A DNA stretch of 50,971 nucleotides from Sulfurospirillum sp. (GCA_026987955.1 JALSME010000013.1:1-50971), one strand, 5' to 3'. Shown: positions 5,410 through 46,178, numbered from the stretch's first letter. Program-made: numbers and translations. The notes: generated by a model from the letters alone, not told the origin.

Positions 5410-5784
5410 GTGAGGTCAATGGTGTCACTAGAATTAATTCTTGCTTCTTCTATTATACTTGTGTTAGTAGTTACTATTCCTACGCTTTTTGTTTTATCAA
5501 ATAAGCTTGGACCTAACTCTAAAGGCAATAAAGAGAAGAATCTTTCATATGAAAGCGGTATTACAAACCCAATTGGGAGTTGTGATAGCCGTTTTAGCGT
5601 TAAGTTTTATTTAGTTGCTATAATTTTTGTACTTTTTGATGTAGAAATTATGTTTATGTTTCCATGGGCAGTAAATGTACGAGAACTTGGCTTTTTTGGA
5701 CTTGGTGAGATGTTTACCTTTATGGGTCTTCTCGTTGCTGGTCTTATTTATGTTTACCGTATAGGGGCTCTCAAATGGCAATAG
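5410..5784 (+). CDS. nuoA: NADH-quinone oxidoreductase subunit A (start may be 5419)
   Basis: [27 protein letters not shown]. Confidence 0.95.
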
Positions 5785-6296
5785 GTGCAGAAGCAGTTTT
5801 TGGAGATAGTGTTGTTACCACAAAGCTAGATAGTGCTATAAGTTGGGCTCGTGAGTCCTCTATGTGGCCATATATATTTGGTACAGCGTGTTGTGCAATA
5901 GAGTTTATGAGTGTAGCTTCAAGTAAATTTGATATCTCAAGATTTGGTGCAGAAGTTGTAAGATTTTCACCAAGACAGGCAGATCTCTTAATCGTTGCTG
6001 GAACTATTACATACAAACAAGCTCCTATTCTTAAACGAATTTATGACCAAATGACTGAACCAAAATGGGTTGTTAGTATGGGTGCATGTGCTTGTAGTGG
6101 AGGATTTTATGATAACTACACAACACTTCAAGGCATAGATTCTATCATACCTGTTGATGTATATGTAGCTGGTTGCCCTCCTCGACCTGAAGCTCTTATT
6201 GATGCACTCATACAAATTCAAGAAAAACAGAAGCAAGAAGAATCAATCATTAAAGATAGAGTAAATAGAGATTTTAAAGGACGGCTAGATGTGTAG
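5775..6296 (+). CDS. nuoB: complex I subunit B
   Basis: [26 protein letters not shown] (N2 cluster). Confidence 0.97.
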
Positions 6297-7965
6297 CTGC
6301 TTTGAAGAAAAATTTAAAGGTCTTTTTAAAAAAGATAAAAATAATATATATGTGATTGACCAGACATTTGTTAAGGCGATGATAAAGTGCCTTAAAGAGA
6401 AAGATGGTTTTCATTTTCTAGCTGATATTACAGCTATTGACTACTCAACATTTAACAAACCCACCCCTTCTCGTTTTGCAGTTGTGTATATACTTCGAGA
6501 TAAAGAGTTTAAAAATGTGATTACACTTAAAGCATTTATAGATGAGGAAGAGGGTCTACATGTAGAGAGTATTACAGAGCTTTTTGTCTCAGCGGATTGG
6601 GCTGAGCGAGAAGTTTGGGATCAGTATGGTATAAAATTTATAAATCATCCAAATCTTAAAAGAGTTTTAAATCATAAAGAGTTTGTTGGTCACCCTCTAA
6701 GAAAAGACTACCCAAAAACAAAAGGTCAACTCTGTACAAAAACAGATGATCTTATGGATGAGATGATTCCAATTTTAGAAAAAAGTGGATTTAAATCTCA
6801 CGATGACTTAATGTTTCTAAACCTTGGTCCTGCACACCCTGCTAGCCACGGAACGATTAGAAACTTTGTTGCACTTGATGGAGAAACTATAGTTGCAGCC
6901 GTAAGTGAAATTGGGTATCTTCATAGAGGATTTGAAAAGTCATGTGAAGACCATACCTACAACCAGATTATACCTTATACTGACAGGCTAAATTACTGCT
7001 CGGCTATACTAAACAATATCGCTTTTTCTCACGCAGTAGAGGGTATGCTTGATGTTACCATTCCTGAGCGAGCACAATTTATACGAGTTATTATAGGTGA
7101 GCTTTCACGCATTATTGATCACTTGGTATGTTTAGCTGCAAACCTTGTTGATATGGGTGCACTTACAAACTACTGGTATCTTTACAACCCAAGGGAGGAT
7201 GTATATGATCTGCTTTCTAAACTAACAGGTGCTAGACTTACCAACTCATATATGCGTATTGGTGGAGTGGCACATGATTTTTATGATGGCTTTGAAGATG
7301 ATTTAAAGGGCTGTATAACATCAATTGAAAAAGGTATGTCAGACACGCTTGGACTCATTGAGCACAATAGAATTTTTCATGATAGAACACAAAACATAGG
7401 TATTGTAACTGCCCAAGATGCAATAAACTATGGTTTTACAGGACCAAACCTAAGAGCTAGTGGTGTTGCATATGATCTAAGAAAAACTGACCCTTACTAT
7501 TTTTATGATGCACTCGATTTTGATATTGCTGTTGGTAGTGTTGGTGATGTATATGATAGGATGATGGTAAGATTTGAAGAGATAAGACAGAGTATTAGAA
7601 TTATTAACCAATCTATGAAAATACTGCCAAAAGGCGATATTATAGTCAATGACCATGCTATTGCACTTCCTAAAAAAGAGAATGTCTATGGCAATATAGA
7701 GGGACTTATGAATCAATTTAAACTTACAATTGATGGTGTAAAAGTTCCCTCCAAAGAGTATTATAGAGCAGTTGAAGGGGCTAATGGAGAACTTGGGTTT
7801 TTTATTGTTAGTGATGGCAGTGGTACACCATATAAAGTCAAAGTTCGTCCTCCATGTTTTCCTGCAATGGCTGCACTACCAATAATGCTTAAGGGACACA
7901 TGCTTGCTGATTCTGTTCTTTGTTTAGGAAGCCTTAACATTATTGCTGGAGAGTTAGATAGATGA
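6289..7965 (+). CDS. nuoCD: fused complex I subunit C/D
   Basis: NuoC motifs ([17 protein letters not shown]) followed by NuoD motifs ([24 protein letters not shown]). Confidence 0.95.
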
Positions 7966-8435
7966 GTGAATTTAAATTTTCAAAACAGAACAAAGAGAAG
8001 TACAATGAGCTTCTAAAAAAATACCCAAATAAGGCATCTCTAACCCTTCCTTTGCTCTGGATGGTTCAATATCAAGAGGGATGGATAAGTGAAGATGCGA
8101 TGATTTATATAGCAGATAAACTTGGAACTTCCGCTATGGATATACAAAGTATAGCATCTTTTTATACTATGTTTAATCTAAAGCCTGTTGGTAAATACAA
8201 CATACAAGTCTGTAAAACACTCTCATGCAAACTCTGTGGAAGTGAAAAAATCAGAACACACCTACAAAATAGGCTTGGTATAAAATTTGGTGAGACCACA
8301 AAAGACATGAAATTTACACTTAGTGAAGTTGAGTGTTTAGGAGCATGCGGAGAAGCACCTGCTATGAGCTTAAATGATGACTATGTTGGTGATTTAACAG
8401 TGGAAAAAATAGATAAGATATTGGATGAGCTATGA
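7962..8435 (+). CDS. nuoE: complex I subunit E (2Fe-2S)
   Basis: FYTMF, VCKTLSC, ECLGAC. Confidence 0.95.
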   Translation: MSEFKFSKQNKEKYNELLKKYPNKASLTLPLLWMVQYQEGWISEDAMIYIADKLGTSAMDIQSIASFYTMFNLKPVGKYNIQVCKTLSCKLCGSEKIRTHLQNRLGIKFGETTKDMKFTLSEVECLGACGEAPAMSLNDDYVGDLTVEKIDKILDEL

Positions 8436-9682
8436 TAGTTAAGATAGTAAGTAAAAATTTTGATATAGAGAATTCTCATAAACTAAGTGTTGCCCTTAAA
8501 CATGACAGATATAGCTCACTAAAAAAACTTTTTGCTATGAGTCCTGATGAAGTTACAAACGAAGTTACTAAAAGTGGGCTAAGAGGTAAAGGTGGTGGTG
8601 GTGCACCTACAGGAGAGAAGTGGAAGTTGATGCCCAAAAACCATGATAAACCATCTTACCTTGTTGTAAATGCAGATGAGAGTGAACCTGGGACCTTTAA
8701 AGATAGACAGATTATGGAGTATGACCCACATCTTTTAATCGAAGGTATAATTAACTCTTCATATGCAATAGGAGCTAATAGTGCATACATATATATTCGA
8801 GGGGAGTATGTATTTTGGGCTAAAAGGCTTAATGAAGCCATTGAAGAAGCATATGAAGCAGGATACCTTGGTGAAAAAGTTGCTGGGTACGACTACAAAC
8901 TTGATATAGTTGTTCACCGTGGTGCTGGTGCATATATCTGTGGTGAAAAAAGTGCTCTTCTTGAATCACTAGAGGGTAAACGAGGCCACCCAAGATTAAA
9001 ACCTCAACAAAAAGAGCCTGAGTGGTTTTTTGGAGGACCAACTGTTGTAAATAATGTTGAAACAATTGCTAGTGTTCCATACATAATCAACAATGGCTAT
9101 GAAGCTTACCGTGCATATGGAACCGAACAGAGTCCAGGAACTATGCTTTTTGGCATGAGTGGACATATAGAAAATCCTGGCATTTATGAGCTACCATTTG
9201 GAACTAGAATGAAAGATGTTTTAGAAAAAATTGGTGGTGGAGTAAAGGGTGGGAAAAAACTAAAAGCACTAATACCAGGTGGTTCATCTTGCCATGTTCT
9301 TAAGGCTGAAGAGATTGAAGATATCACATTAGACTATGAATCATTAAGAAAACATGGCTCAAGTTTGGGAACTGGCGGTATGATAATAATGGATGAAGAT
9401 ACTTTTATGCCAGAAGCGATGAAGAATCTTTTTGAATTTTACCATCATGAGAGTTGTGGTCAATGTACCCCTTGTCGTGAGGGCTGTGGCTGGGTTGATA
9501 AGATATTAGCTAAACTGCTAAGTGGAAATGGTACTAAAAAAGATTATGATACAATATTTGATGCTTGTGAAATGCTAAATGGAAAAACAATCTGTGTTTT
9601 TGCTCCCTCAGTTGCTTTTATTGCAAATAGTTATATAACTAAATTTAAAGATGAGTTTTATAGCCTATGCAAAAAAGATTAA
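8432..9682 (+). CDS. nuoF: complex I flavoprotein subunit F
   Basis: NADESEPGTFKDR, GAGAYICGE, VNNVET, ESCGQCTPCREG...C. Confidence 0.95.
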   Translation: MIVKIVSKNFDIENSHKLSVALKHDRYSSLKKLFAMSPDEVTNEVTKSGLRGKGGGGAPTGEKWKLMPKNHDKPSYLVVNADESEPGTFKDRQIMEYDPHLLIEGIINSSYAIGANSAYIYIRGEYVFWAKRLNEAIEEAYEAGYLGEKVAGYDYKLDIVVHRGAGAYICGEKSALLESLEGKRGHPRLKPQQKEPEWFFGGPTVVNNVETIASVPYIINNGYEAYRAYGTEQSPGTMLFGMSGHIENPGIYELPFGTRMKDVLEKIGGGVKGGKKLKALIPGGSSCHVLKAEEIEDITLDYESLRKHGSSLGTGGMIIMDEDTFMPEAMKNLFEFYHHESCGQCTPCREGCGWVDKILAKLLSGNGTKKDYDTIFDACEMLNGKTICVFAPSVAFIANSYITKFKDEFYSLCKKD

Positions 9683-10311
9683 AAGAGATATGTCTATTTG
9701 GCCTGCTTAATGATAAGCAGCTAGATAGACTAAGCAACATAAGCACAATCAAAAAATATGCGTCGGGGAATATACTGTTTTATGAGGGGGATGAGCCTAA
9801 AAATTTATATTTTTTAATTGATGGTCTAATTAAGATATATAGATATAATAAAAATGACAATATAAATATATTGAGTTATTACTACTCTCAAGCTCTTATA
9901 GGTGAAGCAGCAACACTTCAAAGAACGCCTCACCAAGTTACAGCAGAGTGTGAGACAAATTGTAGTGTTCTTGTTGTATCTTTTAATGAATTTGAAAAAG
10001 AGTTTTTAAGAAATCCTGATGTGGCTATTGGAATTATTATGCAGCTTGTCACAAAAGTAAAACAGCTTATGAATACTAACATGCAGCAAACTTCCATGCA
10101 GAAACTTGCATCCTTAATATTTGAAAATCATGAACTTTTTTCCAAATTAAAAAAATATAAAATTGCTGAAATTTTAAATATGGCACCAGAAACATTTTCA
10201 AGAAATTTAAAAAAACTGCAAGCTGATGGAATTATATATTATGATACAAATCATCTTGAGATAAAAGACAAGATAGCCCTTAAAGAGCTATTTGCCTGCT
10301 GTTCGATCTAA
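9667..10311 (+). CDS. Crp/Fnr family transcriptional regulator
   Basis: LFYEGD cNMP-like domain, GEAA, IAEILNMAPETFSR recognition helix. Confidence 0.92.
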   Translation: MQKRLKEICLFGLLNDKQLDRLSNISTIKKYASGNILFYEGDEPKNLYFLIDGLIKIYRYNKNDNINILSYYYSQALIGEAATLQRTPHQVTAECETNCSVLVVSFNEFEKEFLRNPDVAIGIIMQLVTKVKQLMNTNMQQTSMQKLASLIFENHELFSKLKKYKIAEILNMAPETFSRNLKKLQADGIIYYDTNHLEIKDKIALKELFACCSI

Positions 10312-10317
10312 AAAAAC

Positions 10318-11820
10318 TTATCCAACAAATAGTGATTCATACGACAATTTAGCCATATCAATAAGTAAATCAACACCAGGAAAATATGCAACAAGCGTAT
10401 TTCCAACACCACCCCAGATAATAGCAAGTGCAATAAATGCAATCACTACAGGAGCAACTCCTTTTAGTGGAGGAACATTTGTCATCTCTGCACTTCTGTA
10501 AAAATACATAATAGCAATAAGTTTAAAATAGTAATATACCGATATAAAAGTAGCAATAATTCCAACTACTGCTAATATGGTATTTCCAGCTTCTATGGCA
10601 CCTGTAAAAATATAGAACTTTCCGATAAACCCGATAGTAGATGGAATACCAGCTAAAGAAAGCATAAATATACTAAGCATTGCAGCCATATATGGTCTTA
10701 TTTTAGCAAAGCCTCTAAAATCATCATATGTAATTCTAAGATGATCATCAGATGAAATATATGCAATCAAACCAAAAGCTCCTACTGCAGATAAAAAGTA
10801 AGCTACAAGATAGAATATAATTGAGCTTGCTCCACTCTCACCGAGTGCACTTATAGATGTAAATGCAATTAAAAGATAACCTGTATGAACAATACTTGAT
10901 GCTACAAGCATTCTTTTTAAAGATTTTTGAATAATAGCTAAAAAACTACCATATGCAAGAGTAAGGATAATTACATACACAAGTGCATCATCCCAAAAAT
11001 CACGAATAAGATCAAAATCTACTATAAACAGTCTAAGAACAAAACCAAAAATAGCTGCTTTAAATGTAGCTGCCATATAGGCAGTTACAGGCAGAGGTGC
11101 TCCACTATAAACATCTATTGCCCAATTTTGAAAAGGAAATGCTGCAATTTTAAATAAAAATGTAATCAAAATCATAGTTCCACCTATGATAAGTAGGTTC
11201 ATATTTGTTGCGAATGTATTAAGTGACATATCGCCAATTGTTCCAATTGTTGTTGTTCCTGTTGCACCATAGACAAATGATGTTCCTAAAAGAAAGAATA
11301 CACCAGCGAGTGAACCCAGTACCAAGTATCTATAGCTTGCTTCAATCCGCTTTGAAATTACTTTTTCAAAACCAATCATAACATAGAGTGATATAGATGC
11401 AATTTCAAGTGCAACAAATGCACTTATTAGTTCGTTTGCATGAACTAAAAGCATCATTCCAAAAACTGAAAAGAGAAAAAGAGAAAAAAACTCAACAGTA
11501 AACTCTTTATGTTTTTCAAAATAGTGTATTCCTATAAGTATAGTTAGTATAGCACCAAGTATTAAAATAGTACTAAAATAGCTTGCATATGTATCAACAA
11601 TAATCATCTTATTGAAGATATCTATAAACGGATAGTGTGAATACACTTCATCCCCAGTATTTAGATTATACAAGTTTGAAATAAACGCCATTGAAAGAAA
11701 CACCAATGTAGTTATTGAGCCTTTTCTTATAGTAACACTTTTAAATGTACTAACTATCATAAGTGATATAGCACCTAATCCTACAAAAAATAGAGGCAAT
11801 ACATATATAAAATCTATCAT
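10318..11820 (-). CDS. nuoN: complex I subunit N
   Basis: ALEIAS, FKIAAFPF..W..DVYSGAP, SLAGIPSTIGFIGKF. Confidence 0.95.
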   Translation of the reverse strand: MIDFIYVLPLFFVGLGAISLMIVSTFKSVTIRKGSITTLVFLSMAFISNLYNLNTGDEVYSHYPFIDIFNKMIIVDTYASYFSTILILGAILTILIGIHYFEKHKEFTVEFFSLFLFSVFGMMLLVHANELISAFVALEIASISLYVMIGFEKVISKRIEASYRYLVLGSLAGVFFLLGTSFVYGATGTTTIGTIGDMSLNTFATNMNLLIIGGTMILITFLFKIAAFPFQNWAIDVYSGAPLPVTAYMAATFKAAIFGFVLRLFIVDFDLIRDFWDDALVYVIILTLAYGSFLAIIQKSLKRMLVASSIVHTGYLLIAFTSISALGESGASSIIFYLVAYFLSAVGAFGLIAYISSDDHLRITYDDFRGFAKIRPYMAAMLSIFMLSLAGIPSTIGFIGKFYIFTGAIEAGNTILAVVGIIATFISVYYYFKLIAIMYFYRSAEMTNVPPLKGVAPVVIAFIALAIIWGGVGNTLVAYFPGVDLLIDMAKLSYESLFVG

Positions 11821-13296
11821 CTAGTTCCTTATTTGTAAAATATCTAGCAAATAGTGCTGTATAGTTGGTTCTATCTTATAGAAGAACCAATCTGGATATA
11901 TTCCCATTGCTATTATAAGAAAAGCTAAAGGCAACATTCCTAATATCTCTTTTTTATTCAAATCTGTCATTTTTGATACATCATTACCACTATCTGAAAG
12001 AATAGCTCTTTGAAACATCCAAAGCATAAAACTAGCTGCAATAAGTACTGTAAATGCAGAAACTATTCCGGCAGTTGGAGAAAAACCAAATGCTCCCAGA
12101 ATAATTAAAAATTCACTAACAAAGCCGTTTGTACCAGGAAGGCCCACTATACAAAGAAGCATAATTCCAAAAAAAACTGTAAAAATAGGTGCTTTTTTTG
12201 CTATACCTCCAAGTGCAGGAATGGCTTTTATACCTAAATCGTATTCCATTTTACCTACAAGTAAAAAAAGTCCACCTGTCGCCATAGCATGAGCAATAAT
12301 CAAAAAAGCAGCTCCTGTCATACCAAAAACATTTAGTGAAAAAATGCCCGTTACAATAAAACCTAAGTGAGAAGCTGAAGAGTATGCAAACATCTTTTTT
12401 ATATTTACTTGCATCATTGCTGCAATTCCAAAGTATATGAGACCAAATATTCCAATCCAAACGAAAATAGGAGCAAACTCTTTGTATAACTCTGGAAAAA
12501 TTGGCATTACAAATCTAACTATCCCGTAAACTCCAAGTTTAGCCATAATAGATGAAAGTAAAAAAACTCCACCCGTTGGCGAATTAGAGTAAGTTTGAAG
12601 TAACCAAGTATGAAAAGGGAAAAGGGGAATTTTGATTGCAAATGCTATCATAAAACCAAAAAATAGCCATATCTCCTCTGTTCTTGTTAAATTATTTATT
12701 TGAACAATATCATTTAGTGAAAAACTCCAAAATCCGTACTCATTAAAGAAAGAGACTCCTAAGTAAAGAATTGAAATCAACATAAATAGTGAACCCATAA
12801 TCGTAAATACTGTAACTTTTATTGTTGAAAAGACTCTATTGCCTGTTCCAAACATACCAATAATCATAAAAACAGGAAGTAGCATTGCTTCCCAAAAGAA
12901 ATAAAATAAGATCAAATCTTGAGAGAAAAGAGTTCCAGTAATACCAGTTTGAATAAGTAGCATACTTATCCAATACCCTTTTGTTCTTCCCTCCCATAAC
13001 CAAAGATATGCACTAGGTATTAGAGTTGCAATTAACATAAGTATTATCAAAGAAAAGCCATCAATACCTAGACTATAATTAATTCCATAACTTGATATCC
13101 ATGTATAGTGCTCACGAAACTGTAAAAAACCGGTTAACTCAAAGTTATAATATACACTACTAACTAAAGCAAAAATAACAATAGATGTTAAAAAAGCGGC
13201 ATTTCTTGTACCCTTTGCACCAAATGGCAGTATAAGAGTTGTAAATGCAACAAACATTGGTAAAAATATAATAATTGAAAGTATTCCAAAATCCAT
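11821..13296 (-). CDS. nuoM: complex I subunit M
   Basis: FYFFWE, IKIPLFPFHTWL, AYSSASH, GLPGTNGFVSE. Confidence 0.95.
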   Translation of the reverse strand: MDFGILSIIIFLPMFVAFTTLILPFGAKGTRNAAFLTSIVIFALVSSVYYNFELTGFLQFREHYTWISSYGINYSLGIDGFSLIILMLIATLIPSAYLWLWEGRTKGYWISMLLIQTGITGTLFSQDLILFYFFWEAMLLPVFMIIGMFGTGNRVFSTIKVTVFTIMGSLFMLISILYLGVSFFNEYGFWSFSLNDIVQINNLTRTEEIWLFFGFMIAFAIKIPLFPFHTWLLQTYSNSPTGGVFLLSSIMAKLGVYGIVRFVMPIFPELYKEFAPIFVWIGIFGLIYFGIAAMMQVNIKKMFAYSSASHLGFIVTGIFSLNVFGMTGAAFLIIAHAMATGGLFLLVGKMEYDLGIKAIPALGGIAKKAPIFTVFFGIMLLCIVGLPGTNGFVSEFLIILGAFGFSPTAGIVSAFTVLIAASFMLWMFQRAILSDSGNDVSKMTDLNKKEILGMLPLAFLIIAMGIYPDWFFYKIEPTIQHYLLDILQIRN

Positions 13297-13299
13297 AAT

Positions 13300-15186
13300 C
13301 TACCTCATCACTATAATTAAATATGTAGATATAACACTTATACCCATAAGCATTGAAAACGCATACATTCTTGTGTTTGCACTTTGTAATCTTGCAACTA
13401 CATTACCACTTCTTATAAAGCCATTGGATATTCCCATTACAATTTTATCAATAAAATTTATATCTAATTTATAAGATATAAATATACTTAATTTTTTTAA
13501 TTTATCTACAAATATTCTGTCATATATCTCATCTATATAAAACTTATTCCAAATCAGACCTGTATATTCAGGTACTTTACTCATATCGTAATTAAAGAAT
13601 TTTTTATATGCAATTAATAATCCAATAACTGCGGCTAAAATATTCAGTCCCATAAGATATAATTCTATAGAGTGCTCTACATGTAGAGCCTTACTATTCA
13701 AAATCTCAAGCCATATCCCAATATAATTTTGACCTCCCAATAACAAAGGAACACCAATAAATCCTGCCAGTATTGACCCTATCGCCAATATCACTAATGG
13801 CATTGTCATATTTTTTGAAAGAGAGTGCAGCTCTCTATTCTCCTTGTAGTTTGAGCCATGAAAAACAACAAACAGAAGTCTAAACATATAATATGCTGTC
13901 AAAACTGCCGTAATAACTCCAATAATCCAAATAAAATATTCACCTGAGCCAAATGCTGTTAATAAAATCTCATCTTTACTAAAGAAACCTGCAAATGGTG
14001 GAATTCCTGCTATTGCAAGTGTTGCTATTAGCATTGTAAAATAGACTAATGGAGTTTTTCTTCTCATACCACCCATTTTAAATATATTTTGTTCATGATG
14101 AAGTGCTACTATTACTGCGCCTGCTCCCATAAAAAGCAGTGCTTTAAAAAATGCATGTGTAAATACATGAAATATTCCTGCACTGTAACCACCAAGTCCA
14201 ACAGCTATAAACATATAACCAAGCTGACTCATTGTAGAGTATGCGAGTATTTTTTTAATATCAGTCTGTTTTGTTGCAATAATAGCAGCAAAAAGAGCTG
14301 AAAATGCTCCAATATAGGCTATAAAAAGACCTACATTGGGAATCATATCGTAAAGGAAATGAAACCTTGCTACCATATAAACGCCAGCAGTTACCATTGT
14401 TGCAGCATGAATTAGAGCTGAAACAGGAGTTGGTCCAGCCATAGCATCTGGCAACCAAACAAAAAGTGGAATTTGTGCTGATTTTCCAATTGCACCAATA
14501 AGCAGAGCCAACCCAATAAAACTTAAAACTTCTACAGGTACATTTGCCATACCCAGTTCTAAATTGATATAATCAAAACCATTGCTTCCTGCATAATAAA
14601 ACATTGTAATCATAGCAATAATAAAACCCAAATCACCAACACGATTTGCAATAAATGCTTTATTTCCTGCTTTTACATTTTCACTATCTTGATAGTAGTA
14701 GCTAATCAAAAGATATGAACAAACTCCAACACCTTCCCAACCGATAAACATAATAATTGGACTATTTGCTAAAACCAAAAGTAACATTGATGCTAAAAAA
14801 AGATTGAAATAGAAGAAAAACTTTCCATATCCATCATCATCTTTCATATAGCCTGATGCATATATGTGTATTAATCCACCTACAAAAGTGATAAAAAGAA
14901 CCATAAATATGGAGAGTTGATCAGCCATAAAGCCCATGTCTATGTCATAGCCATCAACACTTAGCCACTTATAAGCTCTATATATAATCACATCACTGTT
15001 TTCTAATAATCTAAAGAAAAATGATACTCCTAATACAAAACTAATAAATGGTGCAGTAAGTGCAAACATAGAAAAAACAATATTTGGAATTTTAGTTACT
15101 TTTATTGAGTAAAGGTACATAGTTCCTAATATTAATGAACTTAGAAGTGGAACCAAAACAATCCACGCTAATAAGAAGTTATCCAT
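13300..15186 (-). CDS. nuoL: complex I subunit L
   Basis: GWEGVG, GKSAQIPLFVWLPDAMAGPTPVSALIHAATMV, HAFFKA. Confidence 0.97.
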   Translation of the reverse strand: MDNFLLAWIVLVPLLSSLILGTMYLYSIKVTKIPNIVFSMFALTAPFISFVLGVSFFFRLLENSDVIIYRAYKWLSVDGYDIDMGFMADQLSIFMVLFITFVGGLIHIYASGYMKDDDGYGKFFFYFNLFLASMLLLVLANSPIIMFIGWEGVGVCSYLLISYYYQDSENVKAGNKAFIANRVGDLGFIIAMITMFYYAGSNGFDYINLELGMANVPVEVLSFIGLALLIGAIGKSAQIPLFVWLPDAMAGPTPVSALIHAATMVTAGVYMVARFHFLYDMIPNVGLFIAYIGAFSALFAAIIATKQTDIKKILAYSTMSQLGYMFIAVGLGGYSAGIFHVFTHAFFKALLFMGAGAVIVALHHEQNIFKMGGMRRKTPLVYFTMLIATLAIAGIPPFAGFFSKDEILLTAFGSGEYFIWIIGVITAVLTAYYMFRLLFVVFHGSNYKENRELHSLSKNMTMPLVILAIGSILAGFIGVPLLLGGQNYIGIWLEILNSKALHVEHSIELYLMGLNILAAVIGLLIAYKKFFNYDMSKVPEYTGLIWNKFYIDEIYDRIFVDKLKKLSIFISYKLDINFIDKIVMGISNGFIRSGNVVARLQSANTRMYAFSMLMGISVISTYLIIVMR

Positions 15187-15502
15187 TTGCTGTATCCTTC
15201 TGTTTTAGTACATTAAAAATATCAGAATTCAATGATTTTTTATTTCTATATAGAACAACTATTAGTGAGAGAAAAACAGCAGCTTCAGCGGCTGCAATTG
15301 CTATGATTATCATTGCCATAACTTGTGGTTCCATAGATTCATTGTATCTTCCAAGTGCTACAAATATGAGGTTTACAGCATTTAACATAAGCTCAATTGA
15401 CATATATACTATAAAAATATTTTTGCGAGAAATAATACCAAGAAAACCTATGGAAAAAAGTATCATAGCAAGTGCGATATATGATAAAAGTAAATCAGCC
15501 AT
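15179..15502 (-). CDS. nuoK: complex I subunit K (start MADLLL)
   Basis: MSIELMLNAVN, AAAEAAV. Confidence 0.93.
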   Translation of the reverse strand: MADLLLSYIALAMILFSIGFLGIISRKNIFIVYMSIELMLNAVNLIFVALGRYNESMEPQVMAMIIIAIAAAEAAVFLSLIVVLYRNKKSLNSDIFNVLKQKDTANG

Positions 15503-16004
15503 CTCTATTTTTATCCTTTCTTGCATATACAACTGCACCAACCAATGATGCTAAGAGTAGCATAGATATCAACTCAAATGGAACTAGCCACTTGTTAAAT
15601 AGCTCCATACCAAAACTGTGTATAGAGCCAAAATCTTTTCCTAATATATTCATAGATTTTTCAGGAAAAGTGTTGAAAGCTTTTAAAATCAGTATATTAA
15701 ATGGTATTAGCAAAATAGCGCCAATAATAATTGTAATATTTTTATTTGGCTCATCTGGTAATTCATCATCTCTTATGTTTAAAAACATAATTATAAATAG
15801 AAGCAGTGTTATAATTGCTCCGGCATATAGTATTATTTGTACCATAAATAAAAATGGTGCACTCAAGAGTGCAAAAATACCACCAAGTGAAATAAGCGTC
15901 ACAATAAGACTAATGGCAGAATGCATCGGTTGAGAAAACAATATCATACCAAATCCACCTCCAATAGCGAAAATGGCTAAGCCTAGAAATATTATGTCTA
16001 CCAT
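15495..16004 (-). CDS. nuoJ: complex I subunit J
   Basis: QIILYAGAI, PFELIS. Confidence 0.93.
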   Translation of the reverse strand: MVDIIFLGLAIFAIGGGFGMILFSQPMHSAISLIVTLISLGGIFALLSAPFLFMVQIILYAGAIITLLLFIIMFLNIRDDELPDEPNKNITIIIGAILLIPFNILILKAFNTFPEKSMNILGKDFGSIHSFGMELFNKWLVPFELISMLLLASLVGAVVYARKDKNRDG

Positions 16005-16504
16005 TAATTGCTGCCTTTCATAGGTTTATGAGAAAGTAGTGTATCTCTATCCAAAACAAAGTCCTCTCTATTTTTCTTTACAAAGCTAAATATACCTGTA
16101 TCCATGCGTATTGCATCGCAAGGACATGCTTCAACACATCCACCACAAAACACACATTCGAGTAAATCAATGCTAAATTTTGAAGGCATCTTTTCATCCA
16201 CTCCATCTTCTCTTTCTACTGCCTCAATAAAAATACACTCAGCTGGACAAGCAGTAGCACACATAAAACATGCTACACATCGTACGCTATCATCTTCTCT
16301 TTTAGTAAGTCTATGAACACCTCTGTACCTGCTTGTAATATCTTTTGGTTGCTCCTCTGGGTAGCAAATTGTCTCTATATTTGAAGTATCTTTTAAATTC
16401 TTCATAAAGTGTGAAAATGTTACTTTTAAGCCTCCGACAATAGCCAGAAGGTATAATTTCTCTTTTAAACTATCTCCATGTCTTGGAACAATTTTAACTC
16501 CCAT
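16004..16504 (-). CDS. nuoI: complex I subunit I (start MGVKIV)
   Basis: two CxxCxxCxxxCP motifs. Confidence 0.94.
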   Translation of the reverse strand: MGVKIVPRHGDSLKEKLYLLAIVGGLKVTFSHFMKNLKDTSNIETICYPEEQPKDITSRYRGVHRLTKREDDSVRCVACFMCATACPAECIFIEAVEREDGVDEKMPSKFSIDLLECVFCGGCVEACPCDAIRMDTGIFSFVKKNREDFVLDRDTLLSHKPMKGSN

Positions 16505-16506
16505 AT

Positions 16507-17790
16507 CTAAACTCCCAACATAACGACAAATGTGCCAGTTATAAAGACATTGGCAATAGCAATTGGCAATAGTACTTTCCATGCCAAGTTTTGCAATTGG
16601 TCATATCTAAATCTTGCTAGAGTCCATCTAACCCATATAAAAAAGAAGTTCATCATTAGAAGTTTAACCACAAAAGTCATGACTTGTAGGGCCGCAACTG
16701 AGATATTTACCCCATTCTCACCTATACCAAATAGTAAAAATATCCCTAAAAACAAAATAATAATTATATTTATAATAACAATTCCTGTAATAAGCCATTT
16801 TGTCTCTCTATTTCTTGCATCATTTTTATCTAGCCAGACATTATTTTTCTTTATCCAACCTGCAAACATATAACTCAAAATAGGGATAGTAACAATTAGC
16901 ACAGCAAAAATAGTCGTTATATTATTTTTTAACACCTCAGTATTGAGCCAAGGTATTTGGTAACCACCTAAAAAAAGAGTTACAATCAAGGCACTTGCTA
17001 CACCCATGGCAATATACTCACCAACAAAGAAAAGCCCAAATCTCATTGCACTATATTCTGTGTGAAATCCACCAACAATTTCACTCTCTCCCTCTGCAAT
17101 ATCAAATGGAGCTCGATTAGTCTCTGCAAATGCTGTTATGATAAATAAAATCGCAGCAACTGGTTGTACTATAATACCCCAAGCAGGAATAAAACCCCAA
17201 ACTAAGTTACCTTGAAATCTAACCATGTCACCCATATGAATTGAGCCATAGACTATTAGCATAGAGACTATAGAGAGTCCCATAACCGCTTCATAACTTA
17301 CTACTTGAGCTGCTGCTCTAATTCCTCCAAGAAGGCTATATTTATTGTTACTAGCCCAACCACCTAGCATAAGTCCATATATACCAAGTCCTGCAAATGC
17401 TAAAATCCATAGCATTCCAAACTCCATTGGTAGCGCCTGCATTATATAGCTTTTATCATCGATGACTAAGTCATCAGCAAATGGTATTGCCATAAAAGAT
17501 AGGTATGCAGTTGCAAAAACAATAACAGGGGAGAGAGTAAAAAGCATTTTTTCTTTAACTGCACCTGCCCTATAGTCCTCTTTAAAAACAAGCTTTAACA
17601 TATCTGCAAATGATTGTACTAATCCACCAAGTCTCACCCCGGCAATATTACACCTATTTGGCCCAAGTCTATCTTGCATAAATCCTGCAACTCGTCTTTC
17701 CATCCAAACTAAAACTGGCACAAAAACCAATGAAACTATTAATGCCATAACTATATTAAATATAACAATACTAACAAGTGTAGAATTCAT
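16507..17790 (-). CDS. nuoH: complex I subunit H, extended
   Basis: QDRLGPNR, SYE, ETNRAPFD, RFRYDQL. Confidence 0.95.
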   Translation of the reverse strand: MNSTLVSIVIFNIVMALIVSLVFVPVLVWMERRVAGFMQDRLGPNRCNIAGVRLGGLVQSFADMLKLVFKEDYRAGAVKEKMLFTLSPVIVFATAYLSFMAIPFADDLVIDDKSYIMQALPMEFGMLWILAFAGLGIYGLMLGGWASNNKYSLLGGIRAAAQVVSYEAVMGLSIVSMLIVYGSIHMGDMVRFQGNLVWGFIPAWGIIVQPVAAILFIITAFAETNRAPFDIAEGESEIVGGFHTEYSAMRFGLFFVGEYIAMGVASALIVTLFLGGYQIPWLNTEVLKNNITTIFAVLIVTIPILSYMFAGWIKKNNVWLDKNDARNRETKWLITGIVIINIIIILFLGIFLLFGIGENGVNISVAALQVMTFVVKLLMMNFFFIWVRWTLARFRYDQLQNLAWKVLLPIAIANVFITGTFVVMLGV

Positions 17791-19301
17791 AAGCTACTCA
17801 TTTTTATAGACTCTTTTTTTATATCTTCTAAATCAATATTCTTTATAATACTTGTTAAACTTTTATCCCAAATATCTCTACATGTAGAGCTTTGCTCTTC
17901 TAAAACAGTTGTTACTATATCACAAAGACTTTGTGTTTGTGTACCATATTCCACATGAGTTTTATGAAATTGTAAATAACCATCTATATTTATAAATGAG
18001 CCTTCCCTACTCATATGTGTTTTCATCGGAAGAAATAGGTCATATATCTCAGCACTTTTAGGCATAGATGCATTTATAGATACTTTAACACTAATATTTT
18101 TGTACTTATCAAATCCGCTAGCATCATCTCTACCTATAAGAATTAGCATTTCTGAACCACTAGCATACTCAACTAGATTGGCTTCTTTATCATCAATATC
18201 TAAAAGATTAAATCCTCTTCTATTGGTTGAAAGGTCACTACACTTTAAGTAATCGTCGCCAAACTTTGGATCATGCTCATTAATATCATATCCACTTATT
18301 TTTGCATCATAATATTTAGCGAGTCTCTTTACCTCTACCATCTCTTCTAAAGATAGTGATGGTGAGAGCAGAAATAGTGCCTTTCCATGGTGCCTTTTTA
18401 AAAGTCTAACTAACTTTCCTGTTGCATACTCATGCTCACTCTCGTTACCTCGTATCTGTGCATATGAATCTCTGTTTTTATTTTCTATTTTATAGCTAAG
18501 TCTACCATCGTCACAAATAAAGTAGCCATTTACTCTATCATTGTATCTAGGTCTGTATCTAAAAATTGTATCATCCTCATACTTTGCTTTATGGTGATCA
18601 ACATATATTGAACAACCTTTTGAGCAACCATTACATATGCCTTCATCTGGTTTTAAAAACCAAACTCTTTTATGAAAACGAAAATCACTGCTTGTAAGTG
18701 CTCCGACCGGACATAAATCAACAACATTCATAGCATATGGATTTGAAAGAGGTTTACCAGGAAAAGTAGTTATAACAGAGTGATCAGTTCTATTTAAAAC
18801 TCCTAACTCTTTTGTTTTAGTTATATCTTTTGTAAATCTTACACATCTAGTACACAAAACACAACGCTCTTGATCTAGTACAACATTTGCACCAATATCA
18901 ACATGCTTCTGTCCTCTAGTTTTTGTAGTACTTAGCCTACTCTCATAAAGGCCAACATCCATATAGTAGTTTTGCAAAGAGCATTCACCTGCTTGATCAC
19001 AAACTGGACAGTCGATTGGGTGATTAATAAGTTCCATCTCGAGAATTTGCCGTTTAACTCTTTGTATACTATCACTTTTGGTACGAATAACCATACCATC
19101 CTTAATAGGTGTATCACAAGCTATTTGTGGGCGCTTCTTTCCTTCGATTTCAACCATACACATTCTACAATTTCCATCTTTACCTAGAGCTGGATGGTAA
19201 CAAAAATGTGGTATTTCTATACCATTTGCCAAGAGTTCCTCTATCAATAAAGCATCATCTTTAACTTTTATCTCTACATCGTCAACGGTTATTGTTGCCA
19301 T
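17787..19301 (-). CDS. nuoG: complex I subunit G, short form
   Basis: CYH...GNCRMC, HPIDCPVCDQAGEC, CVLCTRC, CPVGAL, CNGCSKGC. Confidence 0.93.
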   Translation of the reverse strand: MATITVDDVEIKVKDDALLIEELLANGIEIPHFCYHPALGKDGNCRMCMVEIEGKKRPQIACDTPIKDGMVIRTKSDSIQRVKRQILEMELINHPIDCPVCDQAGECSLQNYYMDVGLYESRLSTTKTRGQKHVDIGANVVLDQERCVLCTRCVRFTKDITKTKELGVLNRTDHSVITTFPGKPLSNPYAMNVVDLCPVGALTSSDFRFHKRVWFLKPDEGICNGCSKGCSIYVDHHKAKYEDDTIFRYRPRYNDRVNGYFICDDGRLSYKIENKNRDSYAQIRGNESEHEYATGKLVRLLKRHHGKALFLLSPSLSLEEMVEVKRLAKYYDAKISGYDINEHDPKFGDDYLKCSDLSTNRRGFNLLDIDDKEANLVEYASGSEMLILIGRDDASGFDKYKNISVKVSINASMPKSAEIYDLFLPMKTHMSREGSFINIDGYLQFHKTHVEYGTQTQSLCDIVTTVLEEQSSTCRDIWDKSLTSIIKNIDLEDIKKESIKMSSL

Positions 19302-37697: not shown

Positions 37698-40600
37698 CTA
37701 ATCTTCTTCTAGAGCTCTAACACCTAAGTTTCCATACCTATGATATGAGTGAGATATGCTTTGCTCCTCAAAGTAATTTAAAAGCTCTAACCTTCCCTCC
37801 ATCATAGGTTTGGCTCTAACTATAAACTTTGCAAGCTTTGCAGCCTCTTTAAATACCTTCTTGCTTACTTTTGATATATCAGAGTATATAAGTCTATCTA
37901 CTTTTTTAAAGCATTTTACAAACTCATCTTCACTCTCTCTAACAATATTATCAGTGATATTTAAAAGCTTATCTTTATTTTCATAAAGAAAAAGTACAAC
38001 ATTGTTTTCTAATGTAGCATCTATGCTTATGTGTAAAGATACGCCACTAACTTTTGCAGCTATGATTCTGCTCATAACTTCAAAAAGGTTATCACTCTTT
38101 GTTACACGAATTGCAACTCTTTCTAAAGGAATATAACGAAATACATTATCTTCACCACGAAGCTTAAAGTAATCGTGTTCTTTGTCAAATTCCTCTTTAA
38201 AATTTTTCAAATAACTTTGAAGTGCAACACTAAGCTTTGAAATATCTTCTCTAAAATCCTTATGTATTCCTTTTTCTGTCTGCTTACTCCAATCTTTTAC
38301 TATATCAACTAATGGATGAAAATATACTTTGTCAATCTTTGGCGCAGCAATCTCTTCAAAATCCATAAACTGGGTAACATAGCTATATGCTCCCGCTTTT
38401 CTTCCTGCACCTATAGCAGATTTACCCATACCTCCAAATGGTTGACGAAGAACTATTGCTCCAGTTGTACCACGATTTATATATAGATTACCTGCTTTTA
38501 AATGTTCTCTCCAGTAGTCCGTTTCTCTCGCATCAAGTGACTCAATTCCTGATGTTAATCCATATCCTGTTTTATTTACAAGTTCAATCGCATGTTTTAA
38601 ATCTTTTGCACACATTACTGATAATAGTGGTCCAAAAAGCTCATTCATATGACAAAAACTTCCATCTTTTACACCCCACTTAATAGCTGGTTTCATCATA
38701 TATTCATTTTCTTCAGCATATGTAGGCTTTAGTAGCCACTCTTCTCCAGACTCAAGAGTGTTAATTGCTTTTTTTAGATTTCCCTCTACTTTGTTTGCCA
38801 AAGTTCCTATTCTATTTACATAGTTCCAAACTGATCCTACCTCTAGGCTTTGTGCTGCATCTTTAAGAGCTGATTTAAATCCTTCATCATTATAAACTTC
38901 TTCTTCAAGAACCAATAGTGATGTAGCTGAACATTTTTGTCCACTATTATTGAATGCTGATGCTACCACATTTTTTATCGCCTGCTCACGATCAGCCATA
39001 GCTGTTACAATTGTTGCATCTTTCCCACCAGTTTCAGCCGTTAGATATAAGTCTGGTCTTGACTTTAACATAGCATATGCTGTATCTTCTCCACCTGTTA
39101 ATATAACAAAATCAACTTTTGGATTATCAATAAGGTGTTTACCTGCAAGAGATCCTGGTGCTGGGCAAAATTGAAGTACATTTTTACTAATTCCTGCATC
39201 CCAATAGCATTTACAAAGCTCATAAGCACAAAGAGCAGCAACTGAGGCTGGCTTTACTATGACTGTATTACCAGCCGCAAGTGCAGCTGTAATGCCACCA
39301 ACAGGAATAGCAATAGGAAAATTCCAAGGAGGAGTAATAACACCAACACCACGACCCTTAAACTTTAAATTTTCAAAACTATTAAAGTACTCAGCACTAT
39401 GTCCATAAAACTCCAAAAAGTCTATAGCCTCACTAACTTCTACATCTGTCTCAGTAATTACCTTTCCAACCTCAGCAGATGCAACACCTATTAAGTCCAA
39501 TCTCTTTTTTCTTACTTCATTTGCAACTTTACAGAGCATCTCATGTCTATACTCATGGGTTGCACTTCTCCATCCATCTGGATCATTTGCAGCAATTTCA
39601 ACTGCATGTTCTAAATCTTCAGCACTAGGAATTGTATATCTACCACATACTACACCATCTTTTAGTTGGGATTTATCTAAAACATCTTTTACTTCCCTCT
39701 CGCTTATAAGCTCTTCTCCTCCAACTACAACAGGTACAGTGGTAACCTCATCATCTTTTTTCTTCATCCACTTTGTGCGTATATTCTTTGCCCACTGTTT
39801 ATTTGGTGGTAGTATAAAATCGGTATCAGGTTCTCCATGATACTCTTTAGTATAAAAGCTACCTCCCTTGTAATTATCCCAATTTTCACTTAGTCTATCT
39901 TGTGTTCTTTTAGCTCCTATAAAAAGATTTTTTTTATTTTCAAAAGAGTCGATAAACTTCTGCTTCAACATCTCCCAATCACCACTGCCAGCCTCTAGTC
40001 CAAAAGAGTATCTTATAAAATTTTCTTTCCCTGTATTTTCATCAAATCTTCTTACAAGATAAGCTATAGCATTTGTAAACTGCTCCTTTTTTGCAGCTGG
40101 ACCATATAGAATAACCTCGCCACTAAGCTCTTTGATAGCAACTCGGGCAGACTCACTCATGCCTTCAAGCATCTCCATAGAAAAATGCTCCATTACGCCA
40201 TTTTCTTTCGCAGTTTCATATCCATATGCTAGTTCAAAAAGATTGTGAGATGCAACACCTAAGTTTACAAAAGGAGCATTTTCAGGCTTTAATGCGTACT
40301 CAAGCATAACTTTGTAATTACTATCTGTATCTATTTTTTTTGTATATGGGCAAGTAACCCAATGCTTTAGTTCTGCTTCTGTCTGCTCCATCTCCATATT
40401 TGCACCCTTGACAAGGCGAATTTTTATAGGTGCACCACCATTTTTTACTCTATTTTTAGCCCAATCTGTAAGCTTTACTTGCCATAAATGAGAATCAGGA
40501 AGATATGCTTGAAGTACAATACCTGCTTTAAAATCTTTAAATTCAGGCTTATCAAGTACTCTTTTAAATGTTTCAACTGTTAGTGAAAGATCTCTATACT

Positions 40601-41408: not shown

Positions 41409-42122
41409 CTACTTTTTTTTACCTAAATAGGCCTCTTGAATAACAGTTGAATTCAACAGCTCTTTACTTGTTCCTTCATGTGTTATTTTTCCCAATTCTA
41501 AAACATATCCCCTATCTGCCAACTTCAAAGCTGCTTTTGCATTTTGTTCCACTAGCAAAACTGTAACTCCTGTTGAGCTAATCTCCTTAATTGCTTTAAA
41601 AATACTCTTTACCAAAACAGGAGCAAGTCCTAGGCTTGGCTCATCTAGTATTAGCAATTTAGGTTTACTCATAATAGCTCTTCCAATTGCAAGCATCTGC
41701 TGTTCTCCACCACTTAAAGTTCCTGCTAGCTGCTGCTCACGCTCTTTAAGTCTAGGTAGTATCTCATATATCCATTCCAATGTTTTTATATCATGAGTCT
41801 TTAGTGTATATGCCCCCATAAGAAGATTTTCTTCAACGCTAAGTGTTCCAAAAACTTTTCGTCCCTCAGGAGAGTGACTCATACCAAGTCTAACTATATC
41901 ATGAGCTGGAACTTTTGTGATTTCTTGTCCATCAAAAAGTATATTGCCTTTTGTTGATTTTAAAAGACCACTGATTGTTCTTAGCGTAGTTGTCTTACCA
42001 GCACCATTTGCTCCAAGAATCGTAACAACTTCACCCTTGTTTACATACAAATCAATGCCTTTTATAGCTTTTATTGCACCATAACCTACATGTAAGTCTT
42101 TTACTTCTAGTAGTTTACTCAT
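41409..42122 (-). CDS. livF: HAAT (liv-type) ABC ATPase
   Basis: GANGAGKTT, PEGR, LSGGEQQM, LDEPSLGLAP. Confidence 0.93.
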   Translation of the reverse strand: MSKLLEVKDLHVGYGAIKAIKGIDLYVNKGEVVTILGANGAGKTTTLRTISGLLKSTKGNILFDGQEITKVPAHDIVRLGMSHSPEGRKVFGTLSVEENLLMGAYTLKTHDIKTLEWIYEILPRLKEREQQLAGTLSGGEQQMLAIGRAIMSKPKLLILDEPSLGLAPVLVKSIFKAIKEISSTGVTVLLVEQNAKAALKLADRGYVLELGKITHEGTSKELLNSTVIQEAYLGKKK

Positions 42123-43848: not shown

Positions 43849-43942
43849 CTTAAGGCCTCCTTACTTTGCAAACAAGTTCTCGAAGAGATTGATAGCACTA
43901 AAGCTTCTCTCCTAAAGAGAGTAAAATTCAATAAATTTTTCA

Positions 43943-44845: not shown

Positions 44846-44870
44846 TGTTCTGCTTTCTCTCTTTCTTTAT

Positions 44871-45995: not shown

Positions 45996-46017
45996 ATTTT
46001 CTCCTTTGAAAATTTTA

Positions 46018-46178
46018 GGGCACATCTAAAAACCCTTATGCCCGCAGGGAGTCAAAGAGAGAGACAATCTTGCACAGAATTTTTCATCGCCATAGCTAAG
46101 GCTATGACTCAAAAAAACTTATGCACAATCTTACCTCTCTCTTTTACTCTGAGGATATAAGGGTTTTTAGAGGTGCCC
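46018..46178. mobile_element. 161-bp fold-back MITE-like element
   Basis: 26-bp terminal inverted repeats GGGCAC(A/C)TCTAAAAACCCTTAT..CC, TTTA on both flanks, inner arms also complementary. Confidence 0.8.

What the first reader, a model, noticed from the sequence alone, without database searches (positions are those of the whole stretch)
8432..9682. NuoF with a remodelled adenosine pocket: complex I may use NADPH or another donor
Seen: GLRGKGGGGAPTGEKWKLM, AYICGEKSALLES and RLKPQQKEP replace the canonical GRGGAGFPTGxKWSF, YICGEET and KPPFP. By manual alignment to recalled Thermus Nqo1 numbering, the adenine-stacking F70, F78 and F205 become A58, L66 and Q193. The ribose-binding E185 (E. coli E183) becomes K173 (codon 8948-8950). 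FMN and N3 motifs (NADESEPG, NNVET, CxxCxxC..C) are intact. Known: E183 substitutions in E. coli NuoF raise NADPH activity, and most Campylobacterota complex I enzymes lack canonical NuoEF and use flavodoxin. Inference: a natural NADPH-oxidising or non-nucleotide-input complex I.
Basis: partly seen in the sequence, partly recalled or inferred. Interest (0 to 1): 0.72.

Follow-up and report, generated by a model that had tools for sequence, protein, structure and literature searches.

The report
Complex I with NADPH-type fuel pocket
The fuel-binding subunit of this marine bacterium's second respiratory complex I, described in print as an ordinary NADH oxidiser, has a rebuilt nucleotide pocket shared by a whole branch of Campylobacterota, so the proton pump likely burns NADPH, which has not been measured.

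Summary
Confirmed. 8432-9682 is an intact NuoF of a complete second complex I (Sulfurospirillaceae-like genome, which also has the epsilon-type enzyme). K173 sits at E. coli E183/Thermus E185; A58, L66, Q193 at Thermus F70, F78, F205. L66 is uninformative (E. coli has Leu). K53, G56, K173, E195, an aromatic at 198 and a Lys/Arg at 192-194 are present in 54 of 54 Campylobacterota complex-I NuoFs, one clade under purifying selection; K173 in 0 of 150 distant representatives. The same Glu-to-Lys change gives R. capsulatus FdsB NADP+ activity, and the natural NADP+-using HydB of T. kivui changes two of the same sites. In 19 of 53 relatives this is the only complex I; none of 54 has PntB; 8 of 8 such Aliarcobacter genomes have a pyruvate dehydrogenase E3 with an NADP-type fingerprint. 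Against: no assay, both main adenine-stacking Phe are lost, this genome's own E3 and MDH look NAD-type, and the E3 switch also occurs without this NuoF. Best reading: NADPH-oxidising proton pump (0.65). Papers read call it canonical. The scan noted this clade before in an Arcobacter-family genome (e1-9993376).

The parts
8432..9682 (+). nuoF, 416 aa FMN/N3 subunit with remodelled nucleotide pocket
   Evidence: (PRK13596 478 bits over cut-off 389; TIGR01959 539.6 under 558.65)
8948..8950 (+). K173 codon (AAA), at E. coli E183 / Thermus E185 / R. capsulatus FdsB E259 / T. kivui HydB S320
   Evidence: Lys in 54 of 54 clade members, 0 of 150 representatives
8588..8629 (+). Gly-rich loop K53-G57, A58 (Thermus F70), K63 (Thermus K75, kept), L66 (Thermus F78, uninformative)
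8987..9025 (+). rebuilt loop H186-W198: K190 kept, PPFP replaced by P-Q-Q-K-E-P-E-W; Q193 at Thermus F205, W198 at a conserved Gly
   Evidence: model confidence lowest here (block 191-200 pLDDT 74)
9455..9595 (+). N3 cluster cysteines C342, C345, C348, C388
5410..5784 (+). nuoA (start may lie at the ATG a few codons in)
5775..6296 (+). nuoB
6289..7965 (+). fused nuoCD
7962..8435 (+). nuoE, [2Fe-2S] N1a subunit, canonical type
   Evidence: (TIGR01958 over cut-off)
9667..10311 (+). Crp/Fnr-family regulator gene overlapping the nuoF end; only in close relatives
17787..19301 (-). short nuoG (504 aa), first gene of the inverted second half
16507..17790 (-). nuoH
16004..16582 (-). nuoI (true start probably later; relatives are about 166 aa)
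15495..16004 (-). nuoJ
15179..15541 (-). nuoK (start uncertain)
13300..15186 (-). nuoL
   Evidence: over cut-off
11821..13296 (-). nuoM
   Evidence: over cut-off
10318..11820 (-). nuoN
   Evidence: over cut-off

Best explanation
This is the flavin subunit of a complete second complex I whose nucleotide pocket has lost the acidic residue that contacts the adenosine ribose and gained basic residues, so it likely takes a hydride from NADPH (preferred, or alongside NADH) and would pass the electrons through the intact iron-sulfur chain to menaquinone while pumping protons. Shown: the gene set, the residue changes, their clade-wide fixation, the fold. Inferred: K173 with K194 (and possibly K53/H186) binds the 2'-phosphate; W198 may replace the lost Phe stack on adenine; the NADPH comes from NADP-isocitrate dehydrogenase, from an FqrB-like ferredoxin/flavodoxin:NADP+ reductase and, in Arcobacteraceae, from a pyruvate dehydrogenase with an NADP-type E3. 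In genomes with both enzymes the epsilon-type complex would take ferredoxin/flavodoxin electrons and this one NADPH.
For: (1) Site mapping: FdsB E259, K276, L279, K157 = K173, K190, Q193, K63 (counted). PMC10671435: wild type has no NADP+ activity; E259K gives kcat/KM 68.4 (NADP+) vs 81.2 (NAD+), L279R 75 vs 115; K157, kept here in 54 of 54, is essential. (2) T. kivui HydB, which operates on NADP+, has Ser at the E185 site and Arg340 at the F205 site, and Arg340 contacts the nucleotide (PMC10021017); every clade member has Lys/Arg at 192-194 (54 of 54; outgroup 1 of 62). C. necator HoxF E341A/S342R accepts NADP+ (PMC10127272, PMC12809855; not aligned here). (3) One clade, support 0.995 with the signature columns removed; dN/dS 0.05-0.12 against five relatives. 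(4) Only complex I found in 19 of 53 relatives; PntB in 0 of 54; monomeric NADP-IDH family in 24 of 24 tested. (5) PDH-linked E3 has V/I and Arg at E. coli Lpd E205/M206 in 14 of 18 loci, including 8 of 8 Aliarcobacter genomes with only this complex; loss of E205 confers NADP+ activity (PMC8406311). G137 and G319 have that E3 and no epsilon complex, FqrB-like, NDH-2-like or PntB match. (6) Citrate synthase follows nuoF in 20 of 20 Arcobacteraceae, tying the complex to the oxidative TCA cycle.
Against: No assay and no ligand-bound model. The single Glu-to-Lys change in FdsB yields a poor, roughly dual-specific enzyme, not an NADP-specific one. Both Phe that stack adenine (F70, F205; PMC11677225) are gone in 54 of 54, whereas T. 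kivui HydB keeps the F70 equivalent. This genome's own E3 (glycine cleavage) and five relatives keep the acidic NAD fingerprint, as do 4 of 4 Malaciobacter PDH E3, and most malate dehydrogenases keep Asp; no NDH-2-like gene was found in this genome, so NADH needs an outlet. The E3 switch is not specific: 9 of 9 E3 from genomes lacking this NuoF also lost the Glu. The NuoF change and the Arcobacter E3 change are each one evolutionary event, so their co-occurrence is not a statistical test. In anaerobically grown S. multivorans this complex was barely detected (PMC4585668).
Confidence: 0.65

Rival explanations
1. The enzyme still prefers NADH (or is indifferent): the rebuilt pocket binds NADH in another way and the changes are a fixed accident of one ancestor.
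For: NAD-type E3 of glycine cleavage and NAD-type MDH in this genome, no NDH-2-like match; Malaciobacter keeps an NAD-type PDH E3; FdsB E259K still uses NAD+ slightly better than NADP+; papers call these subunits canonical.
Against: E259K lowers NAD+ efficiency from 29,708 to 81 in FdsB; Glu is kept in 134 of 150 representatives and never Lys; an Mqo-like gene (49 of 54; named by weak hits below cut-off, and recall) with MDH offers another NADH outlet; in G137 and G319 an NADH-only complex would leave NADP-type PDH and IDH without a found respiratory sink.
Confidence: 0.15
2. The pocket no longer binds a nucleotide; its basic surface docks an acidic ferredoxin or flavodoxin that reduces the FMN directly.
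For: Loss of both adenine-stacking Phe in 54 of 54; gain of basic residues also suits acidic carriers; the 10 Campylobacter genomes with only this complex have no E3 over cut-off, and the 2 of them tested have flavodoxin; many retained residues also bind FMN, so their retention does not prove nucleotide binding.
Against: 34 of 53 relatives and this genome already have the epsilon-type complex for those carriers; no flavodoxin found in this 99% complete genome; those 10 Campylobacter genomes all have an FqrB-like gene that could convert carrier electrons to NADPH (name recalled); G137 and G319 lack that gene yet have an NADP-type PDH E3; changes fall on the sites that switch NAD to NADP in homologues.
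Confidence: 0.12
3. The enzyme is NADP-specific but works mainly in reverse, using proton-motive force to reduce NADP+ from menaquinol for biosynthesis during growth on H2 or formate.
For: No PntB in 54 of 54, so a direct NADPH source would be useful; reverse NAD(P)+ reduction by complex I has been proposed for Sulfurimonas (bioRxiv 10.1101/717884).
Against: Citrate synthase inside the operon in 20 of 20 Arcobacteraceae; sole complex I in 19 heterotroph-type genomes; barely detected in formate-grown S. multivorans.
Confidence: 0.08

Closest known systems
Canonical complex I NuoF/Nqo1 (T. thermophilus 2FUG/3I9V, E. coli NuoF, P. denitrificans 8QBY, A. aeolicus 6HLA)
   Same: Fold (TM 0.94, Z 53.8, rmsd 1.8 A over 413 residues to 8qby_F), 45-47% identity, FMN and N3 motifs, full set of 14 subunits.
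   Different: Lys for the ribose-binding Glu, Ala/Gly for F70, PPFP loop replaced, aromatic residue at a conserved Gly, Arg-to-Lys and Ala-to-Gly in the Gly loop.
Engineered E. coli NuoF E183 variants (Morina et al. 2011; paper not held, seen only as a title in PMC6560083 and as described in PMC10671435)
   Same: Same position changed.
   Different: Laboratory single substitutions (Gln, His as cited); here a natural, clade-fixed Lys with about five further pocket changes.
R. capsulatus FdsB E259K/R and L279R variants (PMC10671435)
   Same: Identical Glu-to-Lys change at the homologous site; basic residue at or next to the L279 site; K157 equivalent kept.
   Different: Soluble formate dehydrogenase, engineered, low and dual activity.
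T. kivui HydB of the NADP+-using bifurcating hydrogenase HydABC (8A6T, PMC10021017)
   Same: Natural NADP use with loss of the Glu and an Arg at the F205 site.
   Different: Ser rather than Lys; keeps the F70 equivalent; soluble 630-aa bifurcating subunit with extra ferredoxin domains, not a membrane proton pump.
Epsilon-type complex I of Campylobacterota (NuoXY, flavodoxin/ferredoxin input; PMC6682613)
   Same: Non-NADH input in the same phylum; co-occurs in this genome (contig C131) and 34 of 53 relatives.
   Different: It has no NuoE/NuoF at all; its NuoD is only 38% identical to the NuoCD here.
'Standard' complex I of S. multivorans (SMUL_0508-0520) and 'canonical nuoEF' of A. butzleri
   Same: These are the same clade: proteins named S. 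multivorans, A. butzleri and C. fetus NuoF carry the signature.
   Different: The passages read describe them as NAD-interacting or canonical; none mentions the pocket.

Membership tests
Proton-pumping complex I (Nuo) | All core subunits A-N encoded | tested here: met
   A, B, CD, E, F (+) and G, H, I, J, K, L, M, N (-) all open
Proton-pumping complex I (Nuo) | NuoF fold with FMN site and N3 cluster | tested here: met
Proton-pumping complex I (Nuo) | Quinone reduction coupled to proton translocation | not testable with these tools
   inferred from NuoL/M/N over NCBIfam cut-offs
NADH-specific NuoF/Nqo1 | Acidic residue binding the adenosine ribose (Thermus E185, E. coli E183) | tested here: not met
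   Lys173
NADH-specific NuoF/Nqo1 | Adenine-stacking aromatics at F70 and F205 | tested here: not met
   Ala58, Gln193; aromatic in 0 of 54 at both sites
NADH-specific NuoF/Nqo1 | Gly-rich loop, K75, E95-S96-E97 triad, Y180, K202 | tested here: met
   G54-G57, K63, E83, E85, Y168, K190 in 54 of 54 or 70 of 70
NADH-specific NuoF/Nqo1 | Measured NADH preference | not testable with these tools
   no assay found in the searches run
NADP-using NuoF-like flavoproteins (T. kivui HydB, engineered FdsB) | No acidic residue at the E185 site | tested here: met
NADP-using NuoF-like flavoproteins (T. kivui HydB, engineered FdsB) | Basic residue at the F205 site | tested here: inconclusive
   Gln at 193 itself; Lys at the next residue; Lys/Arg within 192-194 in 54 of 54; no coordinates available to place the side chain
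NADP-using NuoF-like flavoproteins (T. kivui HydB, engineered FdsB) | F70-equivalent Phe contacting the nucleotide | tested here: not met
   HydB F205 corresponds to A58
Epsilon-type complex I (NuoXY) | NuoE/NuoF replaced by NuoX/NuoY | tested here: not met
   true NuoE and NuoF present; the NuoX-type gene (PF16514) lies in the other cluster on C131
Clade C complex I of Spero et al. 2015 (PMC4453560) | Short NuoG (about 493 aa on average) | tested here: met
   504 aa
Clade C complex I of Spero et al. 2015 (PMC4453560) | Placement in their concatenated phylogeny | not tested
   their reference set was not available; only a NuoF tree was built
Bfu/HydB electron-bifurcating subunits | Extra N- and C-terminal ferredoxin domains (about 600 aa) | tested here: not met
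   416 aa, only Nuo51, SLBB and N3 domains

The most novel reading that the evidence does not exclude
A natural NADPH-specific proton-pumping complex I, acquired once and refitted in Campylobacterota, that is the sole complex I of Aliarcobacter butzleri-like and Campylobacter fetus-group bacteria and is fed by a natural NADP-dependent pyruvate dehydrogenase: a respiratory metabolism run on NADPH instead of NADH.
Probability: 0.5. Interest if true: 0.82.

Novelty: new variant of a known kind. Interest (0 to 1): 0.68.

Why it matters
Complex I is taught as an NADH oxidiser, and the NADPH-using versions I could trace are engineered. A natural, selected NADPH version in culturable species (S. multivorans, A. 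nitrofigilis, A. butzleri, C. fetus group) would break the NADH-for-energy, NADPH-for-biosynthesis rule, correct metabolic models of these genera, show how the NuoF pocket is fully refitted for the 2'-phosphate (single engineered changes give poor enzymes), and supply parts for cofactor engineering, including a candidate NADP-dependent pyruvate dehydrogenase. One simple membrane assay decides it.

Tried and rejected
Sequencing error or decay: rejected (frame open, 120 of 120 and 54 of 54 relatives agree, dN/dS 0.05-0.12). Contigs laid from four other runs: two span the K173 codon, but 100 difference rows were not shown, so it was not used; no RNA holder listed. L66 as a diagnostic change: rejected. 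Lpd fingerprint as a marker specific to this NuoF: rejected by the control (9 of 9 E3 in genomes without it also lack the Glu). My idea that Malaciobacter disposes of NADH through NDH-2: weakened, since 8 Arcobacteraceae NDH-2-like proteins have Ser where E. coli Ndh has Glu215 (the role of that residue is recalled; one of 16 loci, L197, was mis-picked by the script). PF22366 as an NDH-2 test: discarded, it misses the E. coli control. PF06039 as an Mqo test: 1 of 54, replaced by a search with this genome's own Mqo-like protein. Promoter/terminator scan: 25 sites vs 22.9 expected, uninformative. A search for the pyruvate:ferredoxin oxidoreductase with OorA/B found only themselves; not settled. 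The predicted model came without coordinates, so no ligand was docked; complex prediction, the ESM atlas and two remaining homologue searches were not used. Morina 2011, Berrisford 2009, Weerakoon 2008 and Auriol 2011 were not held.

Full report
Observation. The ORF 8432-9682 encodes 416 residues with the three quoted motifs. Against Thermus Nqo1 A58, L66, K173 and Q193 fall on F70, F78, E185 and F205 without gaps in those stretches; against E. coli NuoF, K173 is E183, A58 is F67, Q193 is F203, and L66 is also Leu in E. coli. The codon 8948-8950 is AAA. An AlphaFold2 model built on 110 sequences has mean pLDDT 93, lowest inside the chain at residues 191-200 (74), and matches NuoF structures throughout (TM 0.94; Z 53.8, rmsd 1.8 A over 413 residues to 8qby_F). 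No coordinates were returned, so side-chain geometry was not examined.

Context. The gene lies in a complete set: nuoA, B, fused CD, E, F and a Crp/Fnr gene on +, facing nuoG (504 aa), H, I, J, K, L, M, N on -. The nearest named relatives are Sulfurospirillum arcachonense (82%) and marine Sulfurospirillaceae-type genomes. The genome (1.97 Mb, 99% complete) has a second, epsilon-type cluster on C131 with NuoX/NuoY-type genes in place of nuoEF and no other NuoF-like gene.

Distribution. K53, G56, A58, K173, E195, E197 and W198 are invariant in the 120 best homologue clusters listed of 8000 scored. In a sample of 401 Campylobacterota genomes, 67 matched; 54 carry a complex-I NuoF and 15 matches are HoxF-like hydrogenase subunits. 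All 54 have K53, G56, K173, E195, Ala/Gly at 58, no aromatic at 193, an aromatic at 198 and Lys/Arg within 192-194. They span this family (18 of 19 others), Arcobacteraceae (20 of 23), one Campylobacter genus (10 of 13) and five scattered genomes; none was found in the 118 genomes of family f2. Exact look-ups name members S. multivorans, A. butzleri, A. nitrofigilis, M. molluscorum, C. fetus, C. iguaniorum and Sulfurovum sp.. In Aliarcobacter 41 of 44 genomes match and 30 of 30 loci read have K173. Outside the phylum K173 occurred in none of 59 loci and 0 of 150 representatives, where Glu is kept in 134 and Gly198 in 143; that search lists only the best 150 of 18,933. A FastTree tree of 132 sequences with the signature columns removed groups all 70 K173 sequences (a few may be duplicates between two fetches) in one clade, support 0.995, with canonical neighbours (left out: three quarters of L020-L078, L079-L081, fragments, and representatives under 43% identity). 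dN/dS to five relatives is 0.05-0.12 with dS near 1. The pocket is therefore an old, selected refit, held across sequences as distant as 51% identity.

What the changes mean. A review (PMC11677225, passages) states that F70 and F205 stack the adenine and E185 with the loop lysine hold the adenosine ribose. In R. capsulatus FdsB, E259, K276, L279 and K157 correspond to K173, K190, Q193 and K63 (counted). PMC10671435 (abstract to methods read, Table 1) reports no NADP+ activity for wild type, kcat/KM 68.4 for NADP+ and 81.2 for NAD+ in E259K (wild type 29,708 for NAD+), similar gains for L279R, and loss of all activity on changing K157; it also cites the E. coli E183 work. T. kivui HydB, which operates on NADP+, has S320 and R340 at the E185 and F205 sites, while the NAD-using A. 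woodii subunit is canonical; R340 and F205 (the F70 equivalent) contact the nucleotide (PMC10021017, passages). So two of the refitted sites are those that decide NAD versus NADP in homologues. Against a simple reading, the clade has lost the F70 equivalent that HydB keeps; that W198 replaces it is my inference.

Genome logic. With the epsilon NuoD as query, 34 of 53 relatives have both complexes and 19 have only this one (8 Aliarcobacter, G360, 10 Campylobacter), as does G403 (1 of 5). PntB was found in 0 of 54, an NDH-2-like gene in 13 of 54 and 2 of the 19 (G403 has one), an FqrB-like gene in 45 of 54 (the name is recalled, no family reached cut-off), the monomeric NADP-IDH family in 24 of 24 tested (9 Campylobacter copies read have Ile for a motif His). 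Of 18 E3 genes lying next to aceF, 14 have Val/Ile and Arg at E. coli Lpd E205 and M206, including 8 of 8 in the Aliarcobacter genomes with only this complex; the 4 Malaciobacter copies keep Glu; 3 more Aliarcobacter copies also have Ile-Arg. PMC8406311 (passages) shows that E205G/A give Lpd NADP+ activity and that the best engineered NADP variant carried E205V. G137 and G319 have this E3 and no epsilon complex, FqrB-like, NDH-2-like or PntB match, so this complex is the only respiratory NADPH outlet I could find in them. Citrate synthase directly follows nuoF in 20 of 20 Arcobacteraceae.

Results against. The control failed as a specificity test: all 9 E3 over cut-off in sampled genomes lacking this NuoF also lack the Glu and have Arg, and 13 of 15 HoxF-like proteins lack the E185 Glu. 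This points to a phylum-wide drift to NADP rather than a pairwise link, and each switch is a single event. This genome's E3 belongs with glycine cleavage and keeps Glu, like 5 relatives; its MDH keeps Asp. NADH could go through MDH plus an Mqo-like enzyme (49 of 54; name from sub-threshold hits and recall), but dual specificity of NuoF cannot be excluded. No flavodoxin was found in this genome although 5 of 5 relatives tested have one. [quoted passage not shown]

Prior knowledge. The complex itself is known: PMC4585668 and PMC4794192 call it standard or E. coli-like, PMC6682613 calls the A. butzleri genes canonical nuoEF, PMC2147049 lists NADH as donor (passages). Ten full-text searches gave no paper describing this pocket; 'NuoF + E183 + NADPH' and 'NADPH-dependent complex I' returned 0. 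The library lacks most subscription papers, four key papers were not held, one hit (PMC11238625) was seen only as a listing, and no supplements were read. PMC4453560, PMC9304861, PMC6560083, PMC7730738, PMC10127272, PMC12809855 and bioRxiv 717884 were read as passages. The scan's notes hold the same clade from an Arcobacter-family genome (e1-9993376) and E183-type changes in other lineages; I saw them after my own tests, except that one supplied the HydB lead.

Verdict. A real, clade-fixed variant of complex I; most likely NADPH-oxidising (0.65), with NADH-preferring 0.15, direct ferredoxin/flavodoxin input 0.12 and mainly reverse operation 0.08. New variant of a known kind; interest 0.68.

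Noticed in passing
L165-L169, L171-L179, L272-L274 (Arcobacteraceae and G258): Pyruvate dehydrogenase E3 with Val/Ile and Arg at E. coli Lpd E205/M206: a candidate natural NADP-dependent PDH; Malaciobacter copies (L161-L164) keep Glu.
   Followed up: partly
L275-L283: A second, unrelated E3 lineage (about 30% to E. coli Lpd) in 9 genomes without this NuoF also lost the Glu and gained Arg, while its sister in Sulfurospirillaceae keeps Glu: an independent switch; L276 lies next to a PDH E2-like gene.
   Followed up: partly
L133-L147: HoxEFUYH bidirectional hydrogenases of Campylobacterota: 13 of 15 HoxF-like proteins have Ala/Gly/Thr at the E185 site and His at the F205 site, possibly NADP-type.
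   Followed up: partly
L192-L196, L198-L200: NDH-2-like proteins of Arcobacteraceae have Ser where E. coli Ndh has Glu215.
   Followed up: partly
window 5410-10311 (+) versus 10318-19301 (-): The nuo set is split into two convergent halves; the same in 12 sampled family members and L240, whereas the Campylobacter genus and L119-L122 have nuoG directly after nuoF.
   Followed up: partly
L098-L117, L242-L271: Citrate synthase gene inserted between nuoF and nuoG in every Arcobacteraceae locus read.
   Followed up: yes
window 9667-10311: Crp/Fnr-family gene overlapping the nuoF stop by 16 bases, ending in a Cys-Cys pair; two paralogues on contig C98 upstream of a nap-like gene; present only in close relatives.
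   Followed up: partly
L240:9887-11662: A DUF7380/DUF4209 protein gene sits between the two nuo halves in G317; other relatives have other inserts there.
   Followed up: no
G000 whole genome: No PF00258 flavodoxin and no pyruvate:ferredoxin oxidoreductase paralogue of OorA/B were found, although an FqrB-like gene is present; the assembly has 143 contigs.
   Followed up: partly
L298-L307: Monomeric IDH of the Campylobacter genus with this complex has Ile in place of the His after Pro-Lys in a motif recalled as NADP-binding.
   Followed up: no
window 37698-41300, 41409-46025, 48331-49860: PutA-like proline dehydrogenase, a branched-chain amino acid ABC transporter set and a cytochrome bd subunit I; ordinary genes.
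   Followed up: no
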